Below, in pieces: positions 2,105-35,525 of a stretch of 64,000 nucleotides of DNA. The DNA is taken from positions 1-64,000 of the IMG/VR virus record IMGVR_UViG_3300005098_000013. One strand, written 5' to 3'. This DNA comes from a virus. The first letter of the stretch is position 1. Each line of letters starts with the position of its first letter. The notes under the pieces were generated by a model. It did no database searches. It saw only the letters and a list, made by a program, of their open reading frames with translations, and was not told the DNA's origin. A program made the position numbers and the translations under genes.

Positions 2105-2135
2105 TATTTAAATATATAAAATATATATTTAAATA
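2105..2135. promoter_or_regulatory. Perfect AT-only inverted repeat TATTTAAATATATA-AAA-TATATATTTAAATA upstream of the early gene block; candidate promoter/operator
   Basis: Palindrome seen; contains TATA-box-like sequence; position before first + strand ORFs. Confidence 0.5.
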
Positions 2136-2263
2136 AAAAAAAAATAAAAATATAGGAGGAATGAAGGAATGAAAGAACAAATAAATTATATAATAAATAA
2201 TAAAAGGTTGCAACATGAAATTATAATGCTGTTCGAAATAATAAAGAACAGGAGGAATGAAAA

Positions 2264-4493: not shown

Positions 4494-4560
4494 AGCAAAA
4501 AAAAAAAAAGAAAGATTGAAATAAAGAATGTAGGAGTGAGAGATGAACGAAATAAAGAAA

Positions 4561-16454: not shown

Positions 16455-17105
16455 AGTATTTGCAACGTTGGCCTTTTGGATTTGCATACTGCTAACTGTG
16501 CTAGCGATTATAATTTCAGGCATATACATTGCAGCATGGTTAGTTGACAAGATATGCATTTCGATTGACAAAATGCTTAGCGAGGAGAAGAAGTGAATGA
16601 TGTGCTGCTGCTTTGCATAGGTATCTTTGGTTGCGGAGCCTTCCTTATAACTATAGGGCCTTGGCTAGTCTACACAATCTTAACTGCAATAGAGGCTCTG
16701 ATTGCTACGGAAGGCGATTTTAAAGTTAGTGAGCCTACGGATAATGTAGATGGGTTGGAAGAGGTTCTGGTTGGCTCAGGTGACAAGGAAGCAATGAGGC
16801 CTACTAGGAGAGCAATTAGGAGAGGCATTGTGAGTGGAGGTGAAAAGATGAGACCAATGAAGCGTGTAACAAATGTAAAAGAGAAGAGGAAGTAAATGAA
16901 AAAAAGAGAGTATGATGTTGTAGCAAAGGCAGTAGAGCCGCCGATTAGAGTGTATTGGAGAGCTAAAGAAGGAGATGAGCTTTCTTATGACGACGCTTAT
17001 ACTATGGAAGATGCAGAACGTATGAGAGATGAGCTTATTGGAGCAGACTTCATAGATGTAGAAATTGTTGTCAAAGGAAAAGATAAGGTGTAGGTGTTGT
17101 AAAAG

Positions 17106-17132
17106 TTGGCAAGCTTGTAATTAGCTTGCCAA
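17106..17132. other. Perfect hairpin TTGGCAAGCT/AGCTTGCCAA just upstream of a tRNA-like element
   Basis: Seen directly. Confidence 0.7.
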
Positions 17133-17140
17133 TTTAATTT

Positions 17141-17207
17141 GAGGCAATATGGTAACAAAATAGTAGCCTGTGCTGCTTGAGTGGGAGTTCGACTCTTCCT
17201 TGCCTCA
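17141..17207 (+). ncRNA. tRNA-like element (acceptor GAGGCAA/TTGCCTC, T arm GGGAG-TTCGACT-CTTCC, vestigial D arm, 4-nt anticodon loop)
   Basis: Pairings read from sequence. Confidence 0.7.
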
Positions 17208-20470: not shown

Positions 20471-21214
20471 TCATTCCTGTTTCTTATTAGCCTCGTACCA
20501 TTCTTTTGCTCTTTTCCATTCCTCTGCAGTCAAGGCTGGATCCGGGAAACCTGTTTCGCAGAAGCCTTTCACTCGATTCCAACAGCTATCGCACCTTAGA
20601 CATGGCCGTTCAGCACCCTCGTAGCAACTCCAGCTCAGCTCAAAAGGTGCATTGGCTTTCCAACCTAACAATATTATATCTGCCTTGCTTAAGTTTCCCA
20701 GATGATGTATTCTTAGGTCATGTTTGCCTCTTGCCCATCTTTCACCGCCCATTGTTATAGCTTGTTGCATCTTCACTAAATATTCCGGTCTGCAATCGCA
20801 ATAATTTGAGTAGTCCACCACGTTGGTCGCGATGAAGACGTTATCGGCTCCAATCGACTCGGCTAAGCCTGCAGCTATACTCAAGAACATAGTATTCCTC
20901 AGTGGCACATATGTAACTGCTGCTTCATCGTCTCCTAACTCCTTATGTTCCGGAATCTCATCGGTTAAGAGAGCACTCTTAAAGAGTTGCTTCACGAACT
21001 TTAGCTCTGCAAATCTCCACTTGATTCCTAACTTGAATGCTATCTTCCTTGCTGCCTCTACTTCCTTCACATGCTTTTGTCCGTACCCAAATGTCAAAGC
21101 TGTTACCTCATATCCTTTCTTTACTGCAGTTGCTGTAAGTGCACAAGAATCCAAGCCACCGCTTAACAAGCACACAGCTTTCTTATTTGGCATATGTCTT
21201 ACATTCTTTTTCAT
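20471..21214 (-). CDS. queC: 7-cyano-7-deazaguanine synthase
   Basis: LLSGGLDS PP-loop, YGQKH, TYVPLRN, Y.DCR, WSCY...C..CDSC. Confidence 0.95.
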   Translation of the reverse strand: MKKNVRHMPNKKAVCLLSGGLDSCALTATAVKKGYEVTALTFGYGQKHVKEVEAARKIAFKLGIKWRFAELKFVKQLFKSALLTDEIPEHKELGDDEAAVTYVPLRNTMFLSIAAGLAESIGADNVFIATNVVDYSNYCDCRPEYLVKMQQAITMGGERWARGKHDLRIHHLGNLSKADIILLGWKANAPFELSWSCYEGAERPCLRCDSCWNRVKGFCETGFPDPALTAEEWKRAKEWYEANKKQE

Positions 21215-21234
21215 TCTTTTCTCACCTCCTAAAC

Positions 21235-22026
21235 TTATAGTTTTCCTTCGAACATACTATAAGCATCAAATGGGTGTATGCTTTCTTGCGAATCACATTC
21301 CACCTTGCACCAATGAACGTCTAACTCCTTTAATTGTTCAACAGCATCTCTCACTACATCTTCTACAAACTTGGTGTTTTCATGCATATACTCCACCGCC
21401 CTCTTTTCGTCTGGCCTTTTCAATATGTTATAGACAGGCGAAGAGAATGACTTATGCGCAATTTCCACCAACTCTTCTGCGCTAACTTCTACCAACTCAG
21501 TTAGAACCTCTACTTCAATCCTTAATGTGCAGCGTTGATTATGAGCAACTCCATTTTTGCACATTTCCCTGGCACAAGGGCAGCAGGTTGCTCCAATCAC
21601 TTCTACACCTAAAGTTGGCTTCTCTCCTGACTTTGCATAACCTAGAAGCTTGTATACCTCACCTTTTGCCTCTCTTTCTGCCCACAATTCCACTTCAGCA
21701 AACTCACAATACTCACTTCTTCTCTTAATATCATCAGCAATGCTCCTTGCTAACCATTCAATGCCTCTCGTTTCCTTTGGAAACACCAAATTCTCTTCCA
21801 TTGCCTGTACCAAACGAGATAAGTGAGCGCCTCTTTGATCTTTCGGCAAACTCAGATACAAATTTGCATTGATTATCACTTCCCTGTCTGATTCTGGCCG
21901 ATGTATGATTATCGGCATCCTTACCCCTTTCAAACCCACTCTATTCAATGCTACACTCTCTACTACTTCATTCTGGACATCTCGTTTTCCTACCATACTG
22001 CTTTGGTCTTCACCTCTCTTATACAT
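21235..22026 (-). CDS. folE2: GTP cyclohydrolase FolE2/MptA family
   Basis: RDVQ, RVG, RGAHLSR, TCCPC, AHNQR, ILKRPDE, KFVEDVVR, ESIHPFDA. Confidence 0.9.
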   Translation of the reverse strand: MYKRGEDQSSMVGKRDVQNEVVESVALNRVGLKGVRMPIIIHRPESDREVIINANLYLSLPKDQRGAHLSRLVQAMEENLVFPKETRGIEWLARSIADDIKRRSEYCEFAEVELWAEREAKGEVYKLLGYAKSGEKPTLGVEVIGATCCPCAREMCKNGVAHNQRCTLRIEVEVLTELVEVSAEELVEIAHKSFSSPVYNILKRPDEKRAVEYMHENTKFVEDVVRDAVEQLKELDVHWCKVECDSQESIHPFDAYSMFEGKL

Positions 22027-22075
22027 TCTTATTTCTCCTCCTTCCATCTGCTTCTTTTTCATGCCAAACTTTTCC

Positions 22076-23623
22076 TTATCCTATTAAACAAACCTTACCT
22101 TCTTCCCTCTTGATTCTCTTCTGCTTCACTAGCCTCCCTATAAGCTCCTCAGACTTTCCATATTGCAAACCAAAGTCAAGCAGCTCATCTTTCAATTCAA
22201 TCTCTCCCATTTCACCTGCTTCCAAAATTCTGACCACCTGCTGCTCTTCTGCACCTCTCGAAATCTGAGTTCTCCATTCCTTTGCAACATTCATAAGCTT
22301 CTGGAGTTCAGGTGTAATGTCTACCTTCAAAACCGAACCAAAATTAGTTGTTGCAATGGTATAGCCAATCCCAAGCCTCTCAAACAACGGCTCAATATAA
22401 TGCGGCACTTTCAGCGTATCAATGCTTTTCATAAACTCATCAGTAAACTTTACACTTCTTAGTTCATCGATTCTTTTCATGACATCTGTTACATCCCAGC
22501 CTATCTTCTTTAGCATTCCTATATCCCCTCTTACTCCTTTGCTGTTCCTCCTACACCACTTTAACTTTTCCTTTTCTGCAACTGACGGAATAAAGTTCAC
22601 AAAGAAAAACCTACGTCCTAATCCAGAGGACAAGTCAAACCTTGTTGGTTGGCTTGCTGCAAACAATGTGATATCAGTGTCGTAGCGTATCTCTCCCGCA
22701 GCTAGCCTCTTTACCAAATGCCCCGAATCCAAAGCTGTAAGCAATGCATTGTCCAGATTGGAGGAATGTTCTTGCTTCATTGCCGTTGTCAACGCCGAAA
22801 ACTCCTCTATCCCCACGATGTAATCTGCATAATCATGCGCGGCTCCGTACGTAATTATTGGCTCGCCGCTATCATCTGTAGCCCTAATTGTCCCGGTAAA
22901 GCCTGCCTCAGTTAAGTTGCCGCTATAGGTTGTCTTTAACTCCGTGCCTCCTAGCGCGCTTGTTGGCCCACTTAGCAACACTTTCAAGATGAATGATTTG
23001 GAATTATGCACTACCAGATTGTTTGCAATGTAGTGTTCCTGAGAAGTTGTGAAGTCAACAGCAGGTCCTTGGCGATACATCTTTGTTCTTTTCGTAACAT
23101 GTGCTGTTGTATAGCCGAGATACATTGGTTTTTTCTTCCATGTCTGAGATTCATGAACCTTCAGTTCATTAGGTGTAAAGGCAGTCACTATCTGGTCCTT
23201 TAGCGTAAGATCTTTAGCATGTTTCCATCCATTTTTGGTTAAAACCCGATGTTGTCCCGAACATTTTAGGCCATGCGGCAGTTCATAATAGTCTACATTA
23301 CTGCGCGTCTTATTCAGAACTATATTTGGCTTGCCATTGATTGATGCTAACCTGTCTCCTACTCGAACGTCTACTGCAGCTTTGTGAATTCCACTTTCCA
23401 TAAGAACAGTTGTAGTTGGAGCAACGCAAAAACCTGGTGGCGCAATGAAGAACATATGTATTCTTAAGTCTGGCACAGCTCCTGCTTCCATGTAAAACTG
23501 ATTCTTCTTGTTTGCCAAATTTGCCAAGTGACAACACACAGCAGTAACATAGTACGGAACGAACGTTTTGACAAAACAAATTTTCCGTGACTCGAGAAAC
23601 TCAAGTACGCTCTGCATTAACAT
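22076..23623 (-). CDS. MCM-like AAA+ helicase domain protein with mini-intein
   Basis: Spliced Walker A APPGFSKS, TEAGFTG, Walker B VGIEEF, AASQP, GRRF Arg finger, C-terminal wHTH. Confidence 0.8.
   Translation of the reverse strand: MLMQSVLEFLESRKICFVKTFVPYYVTAVCCHLANLANKKNQFYMEAGAVPDLRIHMFFIAPPGFCVAPTTTVLMESGIHKAAVDVRVGDRLASINGKPNIVLNKTRSNVDYYELPHGLKCSGQHRVLTKNGWKHAKDLTLKDQIVTAFTPNELKVHESQTWKKKPMYLGYTTAHVTKRTKMYRQGPAVDFTTSQEHYIANNLVVHNSKSFILKVLLSGPTSALGGTELKTTYSGNLTEAGFTGTIRATDDSGEPIITYGAAHDYADYIVGIEEFSALTTAMKQEHSSNLDNALLTALDSGHLVKRLAAGEIRYDTDITLFAASQPTRFDLSSGLGRRFFFVNFIPSVAEKEKLKWCRRNSKGVRGDIGMLKKIGWDVTDVMKRIDELRSVKFTDEFMKSIDTLKVPHYIEPLFERLGIGYTIATTNFGSVLKVDITPELQKLMNVAKEWRTQISRGAEEQQVVRILEAGEMGEIELKDELLDFGLQYGKSEELIGRLVKQKRIKREEGKVCLIG
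23003..23428 (-). mobile_element. Mini-intein (142 aa) in Walker A of MCM-like gene
   Basis: Starts CVAPTT, block B CSGQHRV, ends VVHN followed by Ser. Confidence 0.9.
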
Positions 23624-24799: not shown

Positions 24800-25825
24800 A
24801 TGGCAGAGCAAAGTAAAATGAAAATAGAATCGCTAAGGCGTAGTGTAGAGAAGAAGTTAGGCGTTACAAGAGAAGCGTTCGATAAGGTAGTAGAGGCAAA
24901 GAGGGGTCTAGTGAAGAAAAACAGCCCAGATCTGTCTGAGGCTGATGTAGAGAAGAGAGTGTTCTTGCTAGTAAAAAGCGAGTACAAGAAGCAACTGATG
25001 TCGCCAGCAATAAATTTTGAAGGTGTAGTGTTGAGCTGGGGAAGAACATTTGATTCAGTAGCACAGATGAGAGCAGATGCGATGGAAGCAATGAAAAGAG
25101 ATGAGGAGCAGGCAATAGCAGAAGGGTATGTAGATGTAGATGGATACCCGTTGGATACAAGAGAAGTGTACAAGTCAGGACAACCAAACAGGCAATATGG
25201 AAAGAGATTGCCAAAGCACAACTACATACGCAACCTGATAGGTGTGTGCATATATGAAGAGGTACCAAGGCTGTTCAGACTTGTGTTGAGCGATGTAGTG
25301 CCTGTAGACAAGCCAGTTGATCCGGCTACATTGAAAACAAACTTAGAGGTGCCAATGTTTGTGCCTGTAGAGTTCAGGGCTAACGTGGCAAAAACGCAAA
25401 GAGACGATAGGTTTTTGCAGCTGAATCAATCGAAAAGTACTGACTTCAGGTTAAGTGATGCAGAAATAGACATTGCAAACGTAATGAACTCGGAATTGCT
25501 GGATCCCTTCAGAGTAACGCCAGAAGAAGTTGGCGACTACTACGATGCACATGCAACACAACCTGAAAGACTAGTGATAATGGAAGGATCTGTGATGATG
25601 ATAGGTGAAGAGGGCAGCGCTTCAGGTGATGTGTTAGTGATGGTCGATAGTGAAGAGAGCGGCTTTGATTTCATGGGAGTCAGGTGTTGGGTGCCAAGCA
25701 ATCTGTTGGAGAAGGCTGATATAGAAGAAGGAGATGTGGTAACTATAATTGGGCAGGCAAACCGTGGAACCTTTGGAGATGAATCCGTGGATATGGTCAA
25801 TGTGACCGGTATCTATACGAAATGA
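24800..25825 (+). CDS. Putative OB-fold ssDNA-binding (RPA-like) protein
   Basis: C-terminal OB-like pattern EEGDVVTIIG; replication context. Confidence 0.5.
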   Translation: MAEQSKMKIESLRRSVEKKLGVTREAFDKVVEAKRGLVKKNSPDLSEADVEKRVFLLVKSEYKKQLMSPAINFEGVVLSWGRTFDSVAQMRADAMEAMKRDEEQAIAEGYVDVDGYPLDTREVYKSGQPNRQYGKRLPKHNYIRNLIGVCIYEEVPRLFRLVLSDVVPVDKPVDPATLKTNLEVPMFVPVEFRANVAKTQRDDRFLQLNQSKSTDFRLSDAEIDIANVMNSELLDPFRVTPEEVGDYYDAHATQPERLVIMEGSVMMIGEEGSASGDVLVMVDSEESGFDFMGVRCWVPSNLLEKADIEEGDVVTIIGQANRGTFGDESVDMVNVTGIYTK

Positions 25826-26112
25826 GAGCTTATGACGAGTCTGATGTGAAGCTAGGACGACAAGCAGCAGACATTTTGGAGCAACTTGAGAAGCTTGAAC
25901 CGTTTAGTGAAGAAGTAAAAGCAAAATTGAACCGTTTTAGTGAAGAGCTGTTCGGCTTCATTCATGGTAAGAAGGAAGCAGATCAAATGGCTGAAAGAAG
26001 CATTTGCGAAAAGATCTTATGCCGAATATCGAGCGTTAGCACTGCATTGGAAGATATGTCTGTCGAACTGGATTCGATGCTGAACGAGTTGCCACAGAAA
26101 ATGAAGCAGTAA
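25822..26112 (+). CDS. Hypothetical protein
   Basis: ATGA coupling to upstream gene. Confidence 0.65.
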   Translation: MRAYDESDVKLGRQAADILEQLEKLEPFSEEVKAKLNRFSEELFGFIHGKKEADQMAERSICEKILCRISSVSTALEDMSVELDSMLNELPQKMKQ

Positions 26113-26250
26113 GACAAAAGTGTTGGGGTGTGTTGGATGCATAAACCTAGGCAGATTGCCGCAATAGCAAGTAGGTGCATGAAAGCTTTTGGGCAAAAAG
26201 CTGTGATTAAGACTGCAGTGGTGCTGCCAGGATGCACAACCCAACACGTC
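26113..26250 (+). ncRNA. Putative multi-stem ncRNA
   Basis: Closing stem GTGTTGGGGTGTGT/GCACAACCCAACAC; inner ATGCA/TGCAT, ACCTA/TAGGT, GCTTTT/AAAAGC, GCAG/CTGC; followed by T9. Confidence 0.6.
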
Positions 26251-26262
26251 TCATTTTTTTTT

Positions 26263-26345
26263 GGCGCGGTGGTTCATAGAGGAAGTAACAGCCGCCTAGT
26301 TCGATACTAGGATGGAAAAATTAGGTTCGAATCCTAACTGCGCCG
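26263..26345 (+). tRNA. Aberrant tRNA-like RNA, extended anticodon arm, loop TTCGATA (nominal CGA/Ser)
   Basis: GGCGCGG/CTGCGCC acceptor, TTAGG-TTCGAAT-CCTAA T arm, CCTAG/CTAGG stem. Confidence 0.65.
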
Positions 26346-26376
26346 TTCTATGGATAAAGGTTGGAATAACAAAGGA

Positions 26377-26447
26377 GGGCGAAAAGCATACGGAGTTGCC
26401 TAGTTCCAACGTACGTGGAAATGCCGGTTCGACTCCGGCTTCGCCCA
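26377..26447 (+). tRNA. Aberrant tRNA-like RNA, loop ACGTACG (nominal GTA/Tyr, lacks U33 and purine 37)
   Basis: GGGCGAA/TTCGCCC acceptor, GCCGG-TTCGACT-CCGGC T arm, TTCCA/TGGAA stem. Confidence 0.65.
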
Positions 26448-26640
26448 GTTAAGGCAAGTTTAGGTAAGGTAAAGAGAATGAAATCAATTAGATGCATGTT
26501 AGGATTGCATAAGTGGTATTTTCCTATAATAGATGACCGAAGAGTAAGAAGGTGCAGAAGATGTGGGTTGAAACAGCGTGTATCTTATAGTGGATCATAT
26601 AATGATATTTGGAGAAATGAATGAAAGGAGTTGAAATACT

Positions 26641-28527
26641 ATGGGTTGGGATAAGATAAGCGGAAAAAAGGACCAGAAGAGCCCAGAAGAGAAGGATAAG
26701 GAAATAGGAAGTTGGATTACTGCACAACAGAAGATTGAGGTGTCGCCGATTAACTTGGTGGTGTACGGTTTAGATGGTACTTGTAAGAGCAGCGCTTGTA
26801 TAGATATCAGAGAAGCCAACGAGATGGATAAGAAGGTGTTTGTAATTGACATAGACGGATCTGCAGCTCCTATTAAGGAAGCATATTGGAATAATGATGG
26901 GAATATAATGATAGTGGATCCAGTGGAGATAACGGTAGAAGGTGACATTGATTGGATTGCTTCATATAATAGAATTTTAGATACTTGCAAGTGGCTACGC
27001 AAGCATGAGGTTGAGTTGAATCTAAAAGGTGTGGTATTAGATGGCCTAGACACTCTGCTTAAAATATGTGTGGCAGGAGACACTACTATTTATCCGATGG
27101 GTTTGCCGCCAATGAAAATTTCGGAATATGTTGAAACTGGAATGACTGTTCCAATTATGACAAGAAGCGGATATGAAACACCTTTGCGAACTTTTAAGTT
27201 GAAATCCCAATTAATAAAAATAGGCTATGCTTCAGGAGATGAGATTTGTGTAACACCGGACCATCCGTTGCTTGGTACTAGGGAATATTGGAGCAAACTT
27301 GAATTTATACCAGCTTCTGAATTGCAAATCGGTATGAGGTTAGCGGAAATCATGTATGGCCCACAATTTCCATGCTATGGTTATTCTGCAGCAAAGGCAA
27401 AATTTATAGGTATGATGGTTGCGGAAGGGTCAATGACACGCCACTATTCGCCCAAAATTTCAAATAATAAAATTGAACCTGTAGAATTAGCGCTTAAAGA
27501 AGCTTTCCCAGAATGTTATCTTAAACGAGATAGCAAAAATCAATATTCAATTAACTATAGAAAAAACAAAGATGACAAACATAGAAAAAACCCGATGAGA
27601 ACAGAATTGGAACAATTGAAACTTTGGAATTCATATAGCCATACTAAATTTATCCCTGATGTTATAAAATACGGTCCAATTGAGACAATATCTGCTTTTT
27701 TTGACGGATATATTTTTGGTGACGGGTGGCAAACCAAAACAAAAACCGGAAAAAGAATAGGTATGTATACAGTTTCAAAGCAGCTTGCAGAAGACTTAAG
27801 GTTTATTTTATGGAGGCTTGGCAAAAGAACAACTTTATATGTAAACAGATATCACAATGAAGTGGGAAGCAATAAGATGTTTAGCGATTATCAAGCGAGA
27901 ATTGGATACGGTATTAGTGTTGATGAACCGGAAATTGCAAATGTCAAAGGTGACGTACGTCTTAAACCCATAAAAACAATTGAAAGGCTGTCTGGTCTAC
28001 ATGATGTATATGACCTTCAAATGCCATCTGGTAATTTCATAGCAAACAGAATTGTAAATCACAATTGCGAGTACAAAATGAAGGTAGAAGATCTCAAGGT
28101 TAACCCTGCAGCAAGAGTGACCGATTTGTGGTCGTGGCAATTTCGCAACTCTGCTTTCCTTTTGGTAGTGAAGCTCATTAAAGGTCTTAAGTGTGATAGG
28201 CTTTATACGACGCACTTAAAGGAATTGAAAGGATGGGTACAAGAGTCAAAAGGCAAAACTCTAGCCACTACTGGATATGTGCCAGAATATGAAAAATCAA
28301 CGCCAAACTTAATGTTCCAAAAATTAAGTGCAACAAGAAATGATAAGGGAAAAGTTGTGGAGTGGAAGGTAAAGGTTGAAAAGAGCAAGACTAACAGTGC
28401 GCTTGAAGGCAAAGAGTATGAAGTGCTTAGGGTGGATCATGCTAAGGATGAGGTTAGTTGGCATGGCATTAAGGAATTTTTGAGGGAATGCAGACATAAA
28501 GAGGCAGGAAGAAATGAGAGGGTGTAA
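26641..28527 (+). CDS. RecA-like/AAA_24 (Sak4-type) ATPase with intein
   Basis: YGLDGTCKS Walker A, VIDIDG, VVLDGLD, YTTHLK. Confidence 0.75.
   Translation: MGWDKISGKKDQKSPEEKDKEIGSWITAQQKIEVSPINLVVYGLDGTCKSSACIDIREANEMDKKVFVIDIDGSAAPIKEAYWNNDGNIMIVDPVEITVEGDIDWIASYNRILDTCKWLRKHEVELNLKGVVLDGLDTLLKICVAGDTTIYPMGLPPMKISEYVETGMTVPIMTRSGYETPLRTFKLKSQLIKIGYASGDEICVTPDHPLLGTREYWSKLEFIPASELQIGMRLAEIMYGPQFPCYGYSAAKAKFIGMMVAEGSMTRHYSPKISNNKIEPVELALKEAFPECYLKRDSKNQYSINYRKNKDDKHRKNPMRTELEQLKLWNSYSHTKFIPDVIKYGPIETISAFFDGYIFGDGWQTKTKTGKRIGMYTVSKQLAEDLRFILWRLGKRTTLYVNRYHNEVGSNKMFSDYQARIGYGISVDEPEIANVKGDVRLKPIKTIERLSGLHDVYDLQMPSGNFIANRIVNHNCEYKMKVEDLKVNPAARVTDLWSWQFRNSAFLLVVKLIKGLKCDRLYTTHLKELKGWVQESKGKTLATTGYVPEYEKSTPNLMFQKLSATRNDKGKVVEWKVKVEKSKTNSALEGKEYEVLRVDHAKDEVSWHGIKEFLRECRHKEAGRNERV
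27067..28065 (+). mobile_element. Intein (333 aa) with LAGLIDADG homing endonuclease
   Basis: CVAGDT start, VTPDHP, IGMMVAEG and FDGYIFGDG, VYDLQ...VNHN followed by Cys. Confidence 0.92.
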
Positions 28528-34886: not shown

Positions 34887-35525
34887 ATGTTGGAAATTAA
34901 TGAAATCTTCGAATCGATACAAGGAGAAGGTCTTTTAACAGGAAAGCCATTTACGTTTATAAGATTGCAAGGTTGCAACCTGAGATGTAGTCACTGTGAT
35001 ACGAAGAAGGCATGGAAGAAAGGAGAAGGTGTAATGATGAGTGAAGAAGAGATAGCGGCAAAAGTAGAGGAGTTTGGACATCAGTGGGTTGAAATTACTG
35101 GAGGCAATCCATTGCTGCAAAACTTACAACCATTACTAGTGAAGCTTCGCTATACTAAAGAAGGCAAATTGAACAACCGAAGAATAGAATTACAAGCAGA
35201 CTGTAGCCTGAATCCTATGCAATACGCCCTAATTTCAAGAGTTTCGCTGAGCCCTAAGTTAAGTTCAAGCGGCATGACTAAATACATGCACTATGAGTAC
35301 ATGTACTGGTTGAATCCTGGTGATGAGGTTAAGTTTGTCGTAAGCAATGCGGATGATTTTAACGAAGCAATTAGGTTGCTTCAGGAATACCCGACCAAGG
35401 CACAAGTGGTGATGCAGCCAGTTCATGGCAAAAACGGCAAGTGGATTGTAGAAAAGGTTTTAGATGAACATATAGAAAACGTTAGAGTATTGCCACAAGT
35501 TCATAAGGTGTTCGGACTAAGATGA
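34887..35525 (+). CDS. queE: 7-carboxy-7-deazaguanine synthase (radical SAM)
   Basis: EIFESIQGEG, FIRLQGCNLRCSHCDT, ITGGNP, SPKL, PQVHK. Confidence 0.93.
   Translation: MLEINEIFESIQGEGLLTGKPFTFIRLQGCNLRCSHCDTKKAWKKGEGVMMSEEEIAAKVEEFGHQWVEITGGNPLLQNLQPLLVKLRYTKEGKLNNRRIELQADCSLNPMQYALISRVSLSPKLSSSGMTKYMHYEYMYWLNPGDEVKFVVSNADDFNEAIRLLQEYPTKAQVVMQPVHGKNGKWIVEKVLDEHIENVRVLPQVHKVFGLR

What the first reader, a model, noticed from the sequence alone, without database searches (positions are those of the whole stretch)
26113..26447. Structured ncRNA followed by two non-canonical tRNA mimics
Seen: a ~135-nt multi-stem RNA, a T9 run, then two cloverleaves with well-formed acceptor stems and T arms (the elbow read by RNase P, tRNase Z and CCA enzyme) but distorted anticodon arms. 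One has an elongated stem and U37. The other lacks U33 and purine 37 and has extra nucleotides before the stem. Retaining the top half while losing decoding features suggests processing signals (like t-elements or mascRNA) that mature the ncRNA or mRNA, or decoys for anticodon nucleases or TGT-like enzymes, rather than translation.
Basis: partly seen in the sequence, partly recalled or inferred. Interest (0 to 1): 0.75.

Follow-up and report, generated by a model that had tools for sequence, protein, structure and literature searches.

The report
Non-decoding tRNA look-alikes in a virus
A 78-kb tailed virus, probably of an archaeon, carries three tRNA-derived elements that keep a perfect acceptor/T-arm half but have middle parts that cannot decode, so they are more likely RNA-processing signals or relics than working tRNAs; no function could be tested.

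Summary
At 26263-26345 and 26377-26447 lie two tRNA-derived elements. Each has a flawless 7-bp acceptor stem, a 5-bp T stem, a consensus T loop and a D-loop GG, but an anticodon domain that does not fit a decoding tRNA. I found a third, similar element at 17141-17207. Such top halves occur 3 times in the genome against 0.11 expected. Rfam's tRNA model scores them only 29.0, 29.1 and 25 bits.

The "135-nt ncRNA" is one long imperfect inverted repeat (26120-26247) followed by T9. Its statistical support is weak and it has no homologues.

The virus uses the standard genetic code, so no suppressor role is needed. In four syntenic relatives (polB 32-49% identical) the flanking genes abut. The whole 25822-26640 segment is therefore a lineage-specific insert, not a conserved feature. 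Closer relatives exist but could not be fetched, and no expression data were available.

Best reading (about 0.4): translation-incompetent tRNA-like elements embedded between cistrons and cut by RNase P and tRNase Z, like archaeal t-elements. Rivals are decaying pseudo-tRNAs, decoys, and odd but working tRNAs. The scan had noted this same stretch once before, in another window of this genome. This is a new variant of a known kind and of moderate interest.

The parts
25822..26112 (+). 96-aa ORF of unknown function; first gene of the lineage-specific insert. Its stop codon lies 8 nt before the long hairpin.
   Evidence: ORF list. No Pfam or PHROG hit. No counterpart in L002, L004, L005 or L015.
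26120..26247 (+).
   Evidence: Inverted repeat I2, 13 nt, 92% complementary. MFE -44.4 kcal/mol, z -1.9, 6 of 200 shuffles fold as well. The minus strand folds too, z -2.8. No Rfam match.
26254..26262 (+). T9 run directly abutting the 5' end of tRNA-like element 1. It could be a terminator tract or a single-stranded RNase P leader with U at -1.
26263..26345 (+). tRNA-like element 1: acceptor 26263-26269 / 26338-26344, D arm 26272-26289, 8-bp central arm 26292-26315 (loop 26300-26306, UUCGAUA), variable loop 26316-20, T arm 26321-26337, discriminator G at 26345. No encoded CCA.
   Evidence: Rfam tRNA 29.0 bits against a threshold of 29. ARAGORN's 'Leu-tag' call needs a 3/5 stem and C33. Constrained fold.
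26346..26376 (+). 31-nt purine-rich spacer between the two elements.
   Evidence: Same length as the 31-nt stretch between element 2 and the next ATG.
26377..26447 (+). tRNA-like element 2: acceptor 26377-26383 / 26440-26446, 3-bp D arm 26386-26399, 4-nt linker 26400-26403, central arm 26404-26420 (loop ACGUACG), 2-nt variable region, T arm 26423-26439, discriminator A at 26447.
   Evidence: Rfam tRNA 29.1 bits with the anticodon arm skipped by a local end. Constrained fold -26.9 kcal/mol. Shares GCCUAGUUC and a following UGGAAA with element 1.
26478..26624 (+). 48-aa Cys-rich small ORF; last gene of the insert. It starts 31 nt after element 2.
   Evidence: Weak hit to PHROG 2670, E 0.0027.
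17103..17140 (+). 10-bp hairpin plus the U-rich tract UUUAAUUU, abutting element 3.
   Evidence: perfect stem shown in the alignment block.
17141..17207 (+). tRNA-like element 3, not in the original finding: acceptor 7/7, T arm 17183-17199 (UUCGACU), no D stem, central 6-bp hairpin 17162-17177 with a CUGU tetraloop (or 3 bp with loop CUGUGCU, which has C37), 5-nt variable loop, discriminator A.
   Evidence: Rfam tRNA 25 bits, below threshold, with both the D and anticodon arms skipped. Folds. The next ORF starts 20 nt downstream, behind GAGGUGA.

Best explanation
The three elements are tRNA-derived RNAs that have kept only the half of a tRNA read by the processing machinery. That half is the 12-bp acceptor/T-arm helix, the T loop and the D-loop GG that forms the elbow. 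Their anticodon domains have been remodelled into shapes that cannot decode. Shown: the anatomy, its non-random nature, the intercistronic position on the coding strand, the standard genetic code, and the absence of these elements from relatives. Inferred: they are co-transcribed with the flanking genes. RNase P cuts at their 5' end, leaving the upstream message ending in hairpin plus U-run. tRNase Z cuts after the discriminator, releasing the downstream message with a 20-31-nt leader that carries its ribosome-binding site. This would punctuate the polycistronic transcript as t-elements do in Haloferax and tRNAs do in mitochondria. Small tRNA-like RNAs, possibly CCA-tailed, would be by-products. 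The long hairpin plus T9 is most simply the 3' structure or terminator of the 96-aa gene rather than a separate RNA gene.
For: Top halves are perfect in 3 of 3 elements, against 0.11 such hits expected by chance. Only real tRNAs pass the same test in 408 kb of other loci. The bottom halves fail: Infernal skips or pads the D and anticodon arms and scores 25-29 bits, against 52-72 bits for canonical tRNAs in related viruses. Constrained folds give an 8-bp stem, a shifted stem and a tetraloop hairpin respectively. The context repeats at both loci: stop codon, hairpin, U-rich run abutting the tRNA-like 5' end, then an SD-led ORF 20-31 nt after the discriminator. No sigma-70-like promoter lies in front of elements 1 and 2; the only one near element 3, a 9-of-12 match at 17126-17153, overlaps the element itself, and by eye I saw no TATA-like box in front of any of them, so expression would have to come by read-through from the upstream genes. 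All three stop codons are in normal use, so no suppressor is needed. Precedent: t-elements are substrates of RNase P and tRNase Z in an archaeon (PMC4326828).
Against: There is no expression or cleavage evidence. The elements are not conserved: four syntenic relatives have the flanking genes abutting (0-130 nt) with nothing tRNA-like there. A T9 run and a hairpin directly upstream could terminate most transcription before the elements are reached. Detection is biased towards intact top halves, because both my pattern and the tRNA model weight them most. A real tRNA would serve equally well as a processing signal, so the remodelled anticodon arms are not explained by this function alone. In Haloferax most computationally found tRNA-like elements were not cleaved in vitro (from memory of Holzle et al. 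2012, which is cited but which I did not read).
Confidence: 0.4

Rival explanations
1. Decaying pseudo-tRNAs: tRNA genes brought in with an accessory cassette that are no longer used and are eroding. The intact top halves would reflect recent acquisition plus detection bias.
For: Lineage-specific insert absent from all four available relatives. Borderline or sub-threshold tRNA scores. In the register shared with element 1, element 2 has a normal-looking UUCCAAC loop (U33, A37), but its stem is broken at 2 of 5 pairs, which looks like decay. Other relatives carry normal tRNAs elsewhere.
Against: My tally from the sequence finds no disruption in 36 top-half base pairs or in three T loops, against about 15-17 departures in the bottom halves. 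That imbalance would be unlikely under even decay. The new central helices are perfect (5/5, 8 bp, 6 bp) rather than eroded. Length changes are compensated: element 2 keeps 23 nt between the D stem and the T stem.
Confidence: 0.25
2. Decoys or dedicated substrates: stable tRNA mimics that soak up a host tRNA-targeting defence nuclease, or that are acted on by the virus's own enzymes (the protein with a TGT-like domain and the ligase/phosphoesterase polyprotein noted in the head module).
For: The L-shape elements are retained while decoding is lost. Phage tRNAs are known to counter tRNA-cleaving defences (PMC10264068; PMC11464382). The virus carries preQ0 genes and a protein with a weak TGT hit. 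The loops of elements 2 and 3 show G-U-N triplets (GUA, GUG), the queuosine-family anticodons.
Against: A decoy for an anticodon nuclease should copy the target's anticodon loop, yet these loops lack U33 and R37 or are replaced by a tetraloop. The TGT motif UGU is present in one of three elements only, and none has G15 for an archaeosine-type enzyme. The viral TGT-like and preQ0 genes are fully explained by 7-deazaguanine DNA modification. There is no conservation in relatives.
Confidence: 0.15
3. Working tRNAs with unusual anticodon arms (Ser-CGA, Tyr-GUA or Trp-CCA, His-GUG) that supplement translation or escape host anticodon nucleases.
For: ARAGORN calls element 1, and at a relaxed threshold element 2. 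Two elements reach Rfam's tRNA threshold. Phage tRNAs do carry anticodon-loop changes. Element 1 has a good D arm, U33 and discriminator G73.
Against: An 8-bp anticodon stem, a stem displaced by 3 nt, or a missing D stem with a tetraloop would misplace or abolish the anticodon. A pyrimidine at position 37 and C33 are almost never seen in decoding tRNAs (textbook knowledge). ARAGORN's anticodon assignments need 3/5 stems. Element 1 has no long variable arm for Ser and element 3 has no G-1 for His. The codons concerned are not unusually used in the virus.
Confidence: 0.1
4. Recombination relics: tRNA-gene fragments marking an integration (attP) site or the joints of a mobile cassette.
For: They sit in an 820-nt insert relative to kin. 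A long inverted repeat lies next to them.
Against: attP sites need only the 3' part of a tRNA, whereas here both acceptor strands pair perfectly in all three. No integrase turned up among the roughly 45 proteins scanned, though the record is 86% complete and the scan was not exhaustive. A 22-mer of element 2 has no match in 185,579 species' genomes.
Confidence: 0.04

Closest known systems
t-elements of Haloferax volcanii (the tRNA-like structure upstream of 5S rRNA; used as flanking processing signals for icrRNA)
   Same: A tRNA-like fold without a decoding role that abuts another RNA. It is a substrate of RNase P and tRNase Z in an archaeon (PMC4326828).
   Different: Those are chromosomal and experimentally cleaved. 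The elements here are viral, untested, unrelated in sequence and placed between protein-coding cistrons.
mascRNA / menRNA tRNA-like 3'-end signals of MALAT1 and MEN-beta (RF01684)
   Same: The top half is kept and the anticodon arm is aberrant. RNase P cleavage defines the 3' end of the upstream RNA, which ends in a protective structure.
   Different: The Rfam model scores only 19.9 bits against a threshold of 42.5. Those are vertebrate nuclear RNAs. Here the upstream structure is a hairpin plus U-run, not a triple helix.
Viral tRNA-like RNAs (vtRNAs/TMERs) of murine gammaherpesvirus 68
   Same: Virus-encoded tRNA-like molecules that are not aminoacylated and are co-transcribed with other RNAs (PMC4337559).
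   Different: Those rely on Pol III promoters inside the vtRNA and are linked to miRNA hairpins in an animal virus. Here the host is a prokaryote and the elements lie in mRNA operons.
Phage-encoded tRNAs with anticodon-loop substitutions (nuclease evasion)
   Same: tRNA genes of tailed viruses whose anticodon loops depart from the norm (PMC10264068).
   Different: Those remain canonical cloverleaves with point changes. Here the stem length, stem register or D arm is altered, and U33 and R37 are lost.
Mitochondrial tRNA punctuation
   Same: tRNA-shaped elements between cistrons whose excision matures the flanking messages (textbook knowledge).
   Different: Mitochondrial tRNAs also decode. These probably do not.

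Membership tests
Canonical tRNA (RF00005) | 7-bp acceptor stem and 5-bp T stem with a UUCRANY loop and a G53-C61 pair | tested here: met
   All three elements: 7/7 and 5/5 pairs, with loops UUCGAAU, UUCGACU and UUCGACU.
Canonical tRNA (RF00005) | D arm with a 3-4 bp stem, U8, A14 and G18G19 | tested here: inconclusive
   Element 1: met, with one extra U in the 3' strand. Element 2: 3 bp, A8 instead of U8, A14 and GG present. Element 3: no stem, GG only.
Canonical tRNA (RF00005) | 5-bp anticodon stem and 7-nt loop with U33 and purine 37, one nucleotide after the D stem, followed by a 4-5-nt or long stem-loop variable region | tested here: not met
   Element 1: 8-bp stem with a bulge, U37. Element 2: 4-nt linker, C33, C37, 2-nt variable region. 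Element 3: 6-bp stem with a tetraloop, or 3 bp with C37.
Canonical tRNA (RF00005) | Score at or above Rfam's gathering threshold (29 bits) | tested here: inconclusive
   29.0, 29.1 and 25.0 bits. None was reported in the whole-window gathering run.
tRNA-like processing signals (t-elements, mascRNA type) | Acceptor/T-arm minihelix and elbow retained, anticodon domain dispensable or aberrant | tested here: met
tRNA-like processing signals (t-elements, mascRNA type) | Directly adjoins the RNA whose end it defines, on the same strand | tested here: met
   A hairpin plus U-run abuts the 5' end of elements 1 and 3, and SD-led ORFs start 20-31 nt after elements 2 and 3.
tRNA-like processing signals (t-elements, mascRNA type) | Cleaved by RNase P and tRNase Z in vivo or in vitro | not testable with these tools
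   No sequencing run was listed. Needs bench work or RNA-seq.
mascRNA-menRNA (RF01684) | Rfam gathering score of 42.5 bits | tested here: not met
   19.9 bits.
tmRNA tRNA-like domain | G3:U70 pair, tag reading frame, detection by ARAGORN | tested here: not met
   No tmRNA called. Position 3:70 is C-G, G-C and G-C in the three elements.
Suppressor tRNA of a stop-codon-recoded phage | Anticodon CUA, UCA or UUA in a proper loop, and in-frame stops in viral genes | tested here: not met
   Stop codon counts are TAA 50, TGA 45 and TAG 30 with 90% coding density under table 11. Reading the shared CUA as an anticodon needs non-pairing stems.
Intron-containing archaeal pre-tRNA | Bulge-helix-bulge motif: two 3-nt bulges separated by 4 bp | tested here: not met
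   The long arm of element 1 has a single 1-nt bulge. Element 2 has canonical length with no room for an intron.

The most novel reading that the evidence does not exclude
A prokaryotic (probably archaeal) virus deliberately encodes translation-dead tRNA mimics. Their conserved elbow and acceptor end either titrate a host tRNA-directed immune nuclease or quality-control factor, or serve as dedicated substrates for the virus's own enzymes (the protein with a TGT-like domain; ligase and nucleotidyltransferase functions are earlier unchecked notes). This would be an RNA-decoy arm of virus-host conflict not yet described for archaeal viruses.
Probability: 0.12. Interest if true: 0.8.

Novelty: new variant of a known kind. 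Interest (0 to 1): 0.45.

Why it matters
If these elements are cut by RNase P and tRNase Z, they would show a prokaryotic virus using tRNA-shaped punctuation to mature operon transcripts. That mechanism is known from organelles, a haloarchaeal rRNA operon and vertebrate lncRNAs, but is not established for archaeal or bacterial viruses. If they are decoys, they would add an RNA-mimic strategy to the tRNA-centred arms race between viruses and hosts. If they are plain relics, they warn that ARAGORN's 'tRNA-Leu(tag)' call on this virus should not be read as a functional or suppressor tRNA.

Tried and rejected
- **Stop-codon recoding or a suppressor tRNA.** Rejected: all three stop codons end genes and coding density is 90% under table 11.
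- **Class II (long variable arm) reading of element 1, i.e. ARAGORN's Leu-tag.** Rejected: it needs a 3/5 stem, C33 and U37, and has no variable stem.
- **Archaeal BHB intron.** Rejected.
- **tmRNA, Y RNA, riboswitch or any other Rfam family.** No match at gathering thresholds, and only weak chance-level matches at E up to 10.
- **Homologues of the elements.**
  - blastn against 50,697 phage records: none.
  - Three DNA patterns in IMG/VR: none. A fourth gave three chance hits inside coding sequence.
  - A 22-mer of element 2 in 185,579 species' genomes: none.
- **Close relatives by protein.** Single-protein scans of IMG/VR found nothing. Alignment-based scans found only polB relatives of 32-49% identity and a 26% Micrarchaeia polB.
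- **Closer relatives.** polB relatives at 83-88% and 62% identity (P0003, P0004, P0006) exist in ENA/Logan.
- **Sequencing runs.** None was listed and no RNA holder was listed.
- **Earlier-scan look-ups by place and by sequence.** They returned only notes on this same genome.

Full report
**Setting.** The window is bases 1-64000 of a 78,081-bp IMG/VR virus record, estimated 86% complete.
- It is a tailed virus with family-B DNA polymerase, tape measure, portal, large terminase and baseplate J.
- It carries preQ0-pathway genes: QueC, FolE2 and a radical-SAM protein.
- Two proteins contain inteins.
- Its polB is closest to haloarchaeal tailed viruses (about 24%) and to archaeal polymerases.
- Its terminase falls with MJ0330_N-type clusters.
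- Arg AGA/AGG and Ile ATA are the preferred codons.
- I infer an archaeal host, but this is not proven.

Element 1 (26263-26345):
- The acceptor stem is GGCGCGG/CUGCGCC with one G-U pair.
- U8, A14, GG and A21 are present in the D region.
- The T arm is UUAGG-UUCGAAU-CCUAA.
- With the acceptor and T arms enforced, the middle folds into CCUAG/CUAGG extended by CCG/UGG across a bulged A. That gives 8 bp, a loop UUCGAUA and a 5-nt variable loop.
- Infernal aligns the same arm, pads the variable region with 6 inserted nucleotides and skips the D region. The score is 29.0 bits.

Element 2 (26377-26447):
- It has perfect acceptor and T arms and a 3-bp D stem.
- Four nucleotides (CUAG) stand where one belongs. 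The stem is UUCCA/UGGAA, the loop is ACGUACG and only 2 variable nucleotides follow.
- Infernal skips its anticodon arm altogether. The score is 29.1 bits.

Other calls on these two elements:
- ARAGORN calls element 1 'Leu(tag)' and, at a relaxed setting, element 2 'Val(aac)'. Both calls rest on 3/5 stems without U33.
- Neither element appeared in the whole-window Rfam run at gathering thresholds.

Element 3 (17141-17207) is a third element of the same kind:
- It has perfect acceptor and T arms and no D stem.
- Its central 6-bp hairpin carries a tetraloop.
- It scores 25 bits.

**Is this more than chance?**
- A strict pattern (5/5 T stem, TTCRANN loop, 7/7 acceptor at the right distance) hits three times in the genome.
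- The mean in 100 dinucleotide-preserving shuffles is 0.11, with a maximum of 1.
- In 408 kb of other fetched loci the same pattern picks only canonical tRNAs.
- The elements are therefore tRNA-derived.
- Elements 1 and 2 also share GCCUAGUUC, a 9-mer that occurs nowhere else in the genome, and a UGGAAA 18-19 nt further on. Their central domains are probably related by duplication.

**The 'ncRNA'.**
- The stretch 26120-26247 is one long imperfect hairpin, with 13-nt arms that are 92% complementary.
- Its stability is only modestly above shuffles: z -1.9 on the + strand and -2.8 on the - strand.
- It has no Rfam match.
- A 17-mer from it matched three viral contigs, but only in unrelated coding sequence.
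- It starts 8 nt after the stop codon of a 96-aa ORF and is followed by GUCUCA and T9.
- I read it as the 3' structure or terminator of that gene. A separate small RNA is not excluded.

**Context.** Both loci have the same layout on the coding strand:
1. a stop codon;
2. a hairpin;
3. a U-rich run that directly abuts the tRNA-like 5' end (T9 at 26254-26262; UUUAAUUU at 17133-17140);
4. the element or elements;
5. an ORF with a Shine-Dalgarno-like motif, starting 31 nt after element 2 and 20 nt after element 3.

No sigma-70-like promoter precedes elements 1 and 2. The only one near element 3 is a 9-of-12 match at 17126-17153 that overlaps the element itself. By eye I saw no TATA-like box in front of any of them. 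Expression would therefore depend on read-through from the upstream genes.

**Genetic code.** Under table 11 the genome is 90% coding and all three stop codons end genes (TAA 50, TGA 45, TAG 30). The CUA triplet shared by elements 1 and 2 is therefore not a suppressor anticodon.

**Relatives.**
- Alignment-based searches recovered four syntenic relatives: L015 (polB 49% identical), L004, L002 and L005 (32-33%).
- The gene order p515 - ERCC4 - p341 - p628 - p237 - polB is kept in L002, L004 and L005. L015, an 8-kb contig, shows the p341 - p628 - p237 - polB part.
- In all four, the p341 and p628 orthologues overlap or lie within 130 nt, with no tRNA-like sequence between them. In all four the p628 orthologue aligns as two adjoining blocks, without the intein.
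- The 820-nt segment 25822-26640 (96-aa ORF, hairpin, both elements, 48-aa ORF) is therefore a lineage-specific insert.
- Those relatives have either no tRNA or canonical tRNAs elsewhere, scoring 52-72 bits.
- Closer relatives exist in other archives (polB 62-88% identical).
- No sequencing run was listed.

**Interpretation.**
- It is secure that these are tRNA-derived elements whose processing half is intact and whose decoding half is not.
- By my own tally from the sequence, none of the 36 top-half base pairs or the three T loops is disrupted, while about 15-17 canonical bottom-half features are.
- One caveat applies: detection favours intact top halves.
- The remodelled central arms are themselves well paired rather than eroded, which speaks somewhat against simple decay.
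- The best-supported mechanism, at about 0.4, is intercistronic punctuation by RNase P and tRNase Z. This would work like Haloferax t-elements (PMC4326828), with non-aminoacylated viral tRNA-like RNAs as a loose analogue (PMC4337559).
- The rivals are plain pseudo-tRNAs (0.25), decoys or substrates (0.15), unusual working tRNAs of the nuclease-evading kind (PMC10264068; 0.10) and recombination relics (0.04).
- The TGT-decoy idea gains nothing from the data. UGU occurs in one loop of three and no element has G15. The viral preQ0 genes and the protein with a TGT-like domain (weak PHROG hit) are explained by DNA modification.

**Verdict.** The proposed functions remain untested. The lack of conservation in available relatives tempers the interest. 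I class this as a new variant of a known kind (viral or archaeal tRNA-like elements) with interest 0.45.

Noticed in passing
   Followed up: yes
window 26641-28527 and 22076-23623(-): Both proteins carry inteins. The 628-aa ATPase-like protein has an Intein_splicing domain plus a LAGLIDADG domain. Its orthologues in the relatives lack the intein (L015: 294 aa). The polB relatives P0003, P0005 and P0009 carry inteins that this virus's polB lacks.
   Followed up: partly
window 25822-26640: An 820-nt accessory insert between two genes that abut in four syntenic relatives. Besides the RNA elements it holds a 96-aa helical ORF with an internal 19-nt direct repeat (25895 and 25927) and a 48-aa Cys-rich ORF.
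   Followed up: partly
window 6786, 8146, 9474, 11005: Four intergenic hairpins share the apical core CACCUCAGAG(U/A)AGGA, with different but paired outer stems. The core contains CACCUC, the complement of the GGAGGUG ribosome-binding motif used by most genes here.
   Followed up: partly
window 20471-22062(-), 34887-35525; L035:5280-6833(-): preQ0 pathway genes (QueC, FolE2-type cyclohydrolase, radical-SAM QueE-like), plus a 517-aa protein next to the portal gene with a weak queuine tRNA-ribosyltransferase PHROG hit (E 3e-7). This fits 7-deazaguanine DNA modification.
   Followed up: partly
L035:10629-12110(-): The large terminase clusters with MJ0330_N-type terminases, named after a Methanocaldococcus protein. 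Together with the polB kinship and codon usage this points to an archaeal host.
   Followed up: partly
window 26404-26420: The loop of element 2 contains the self-complementary hexamer CGUACG, and the loop of element 1 contains UCGA. Loop-loop dimerisation is conceivable but was not tested.
   Followed up: no
window 2135-2144, 4497-4509: Very AT-rich intergenic tracts (A10, A13, and a TATA-rich stretch near 2110-2160) in the early region. They could be promoters or an origin of replication.
   Followed up: no
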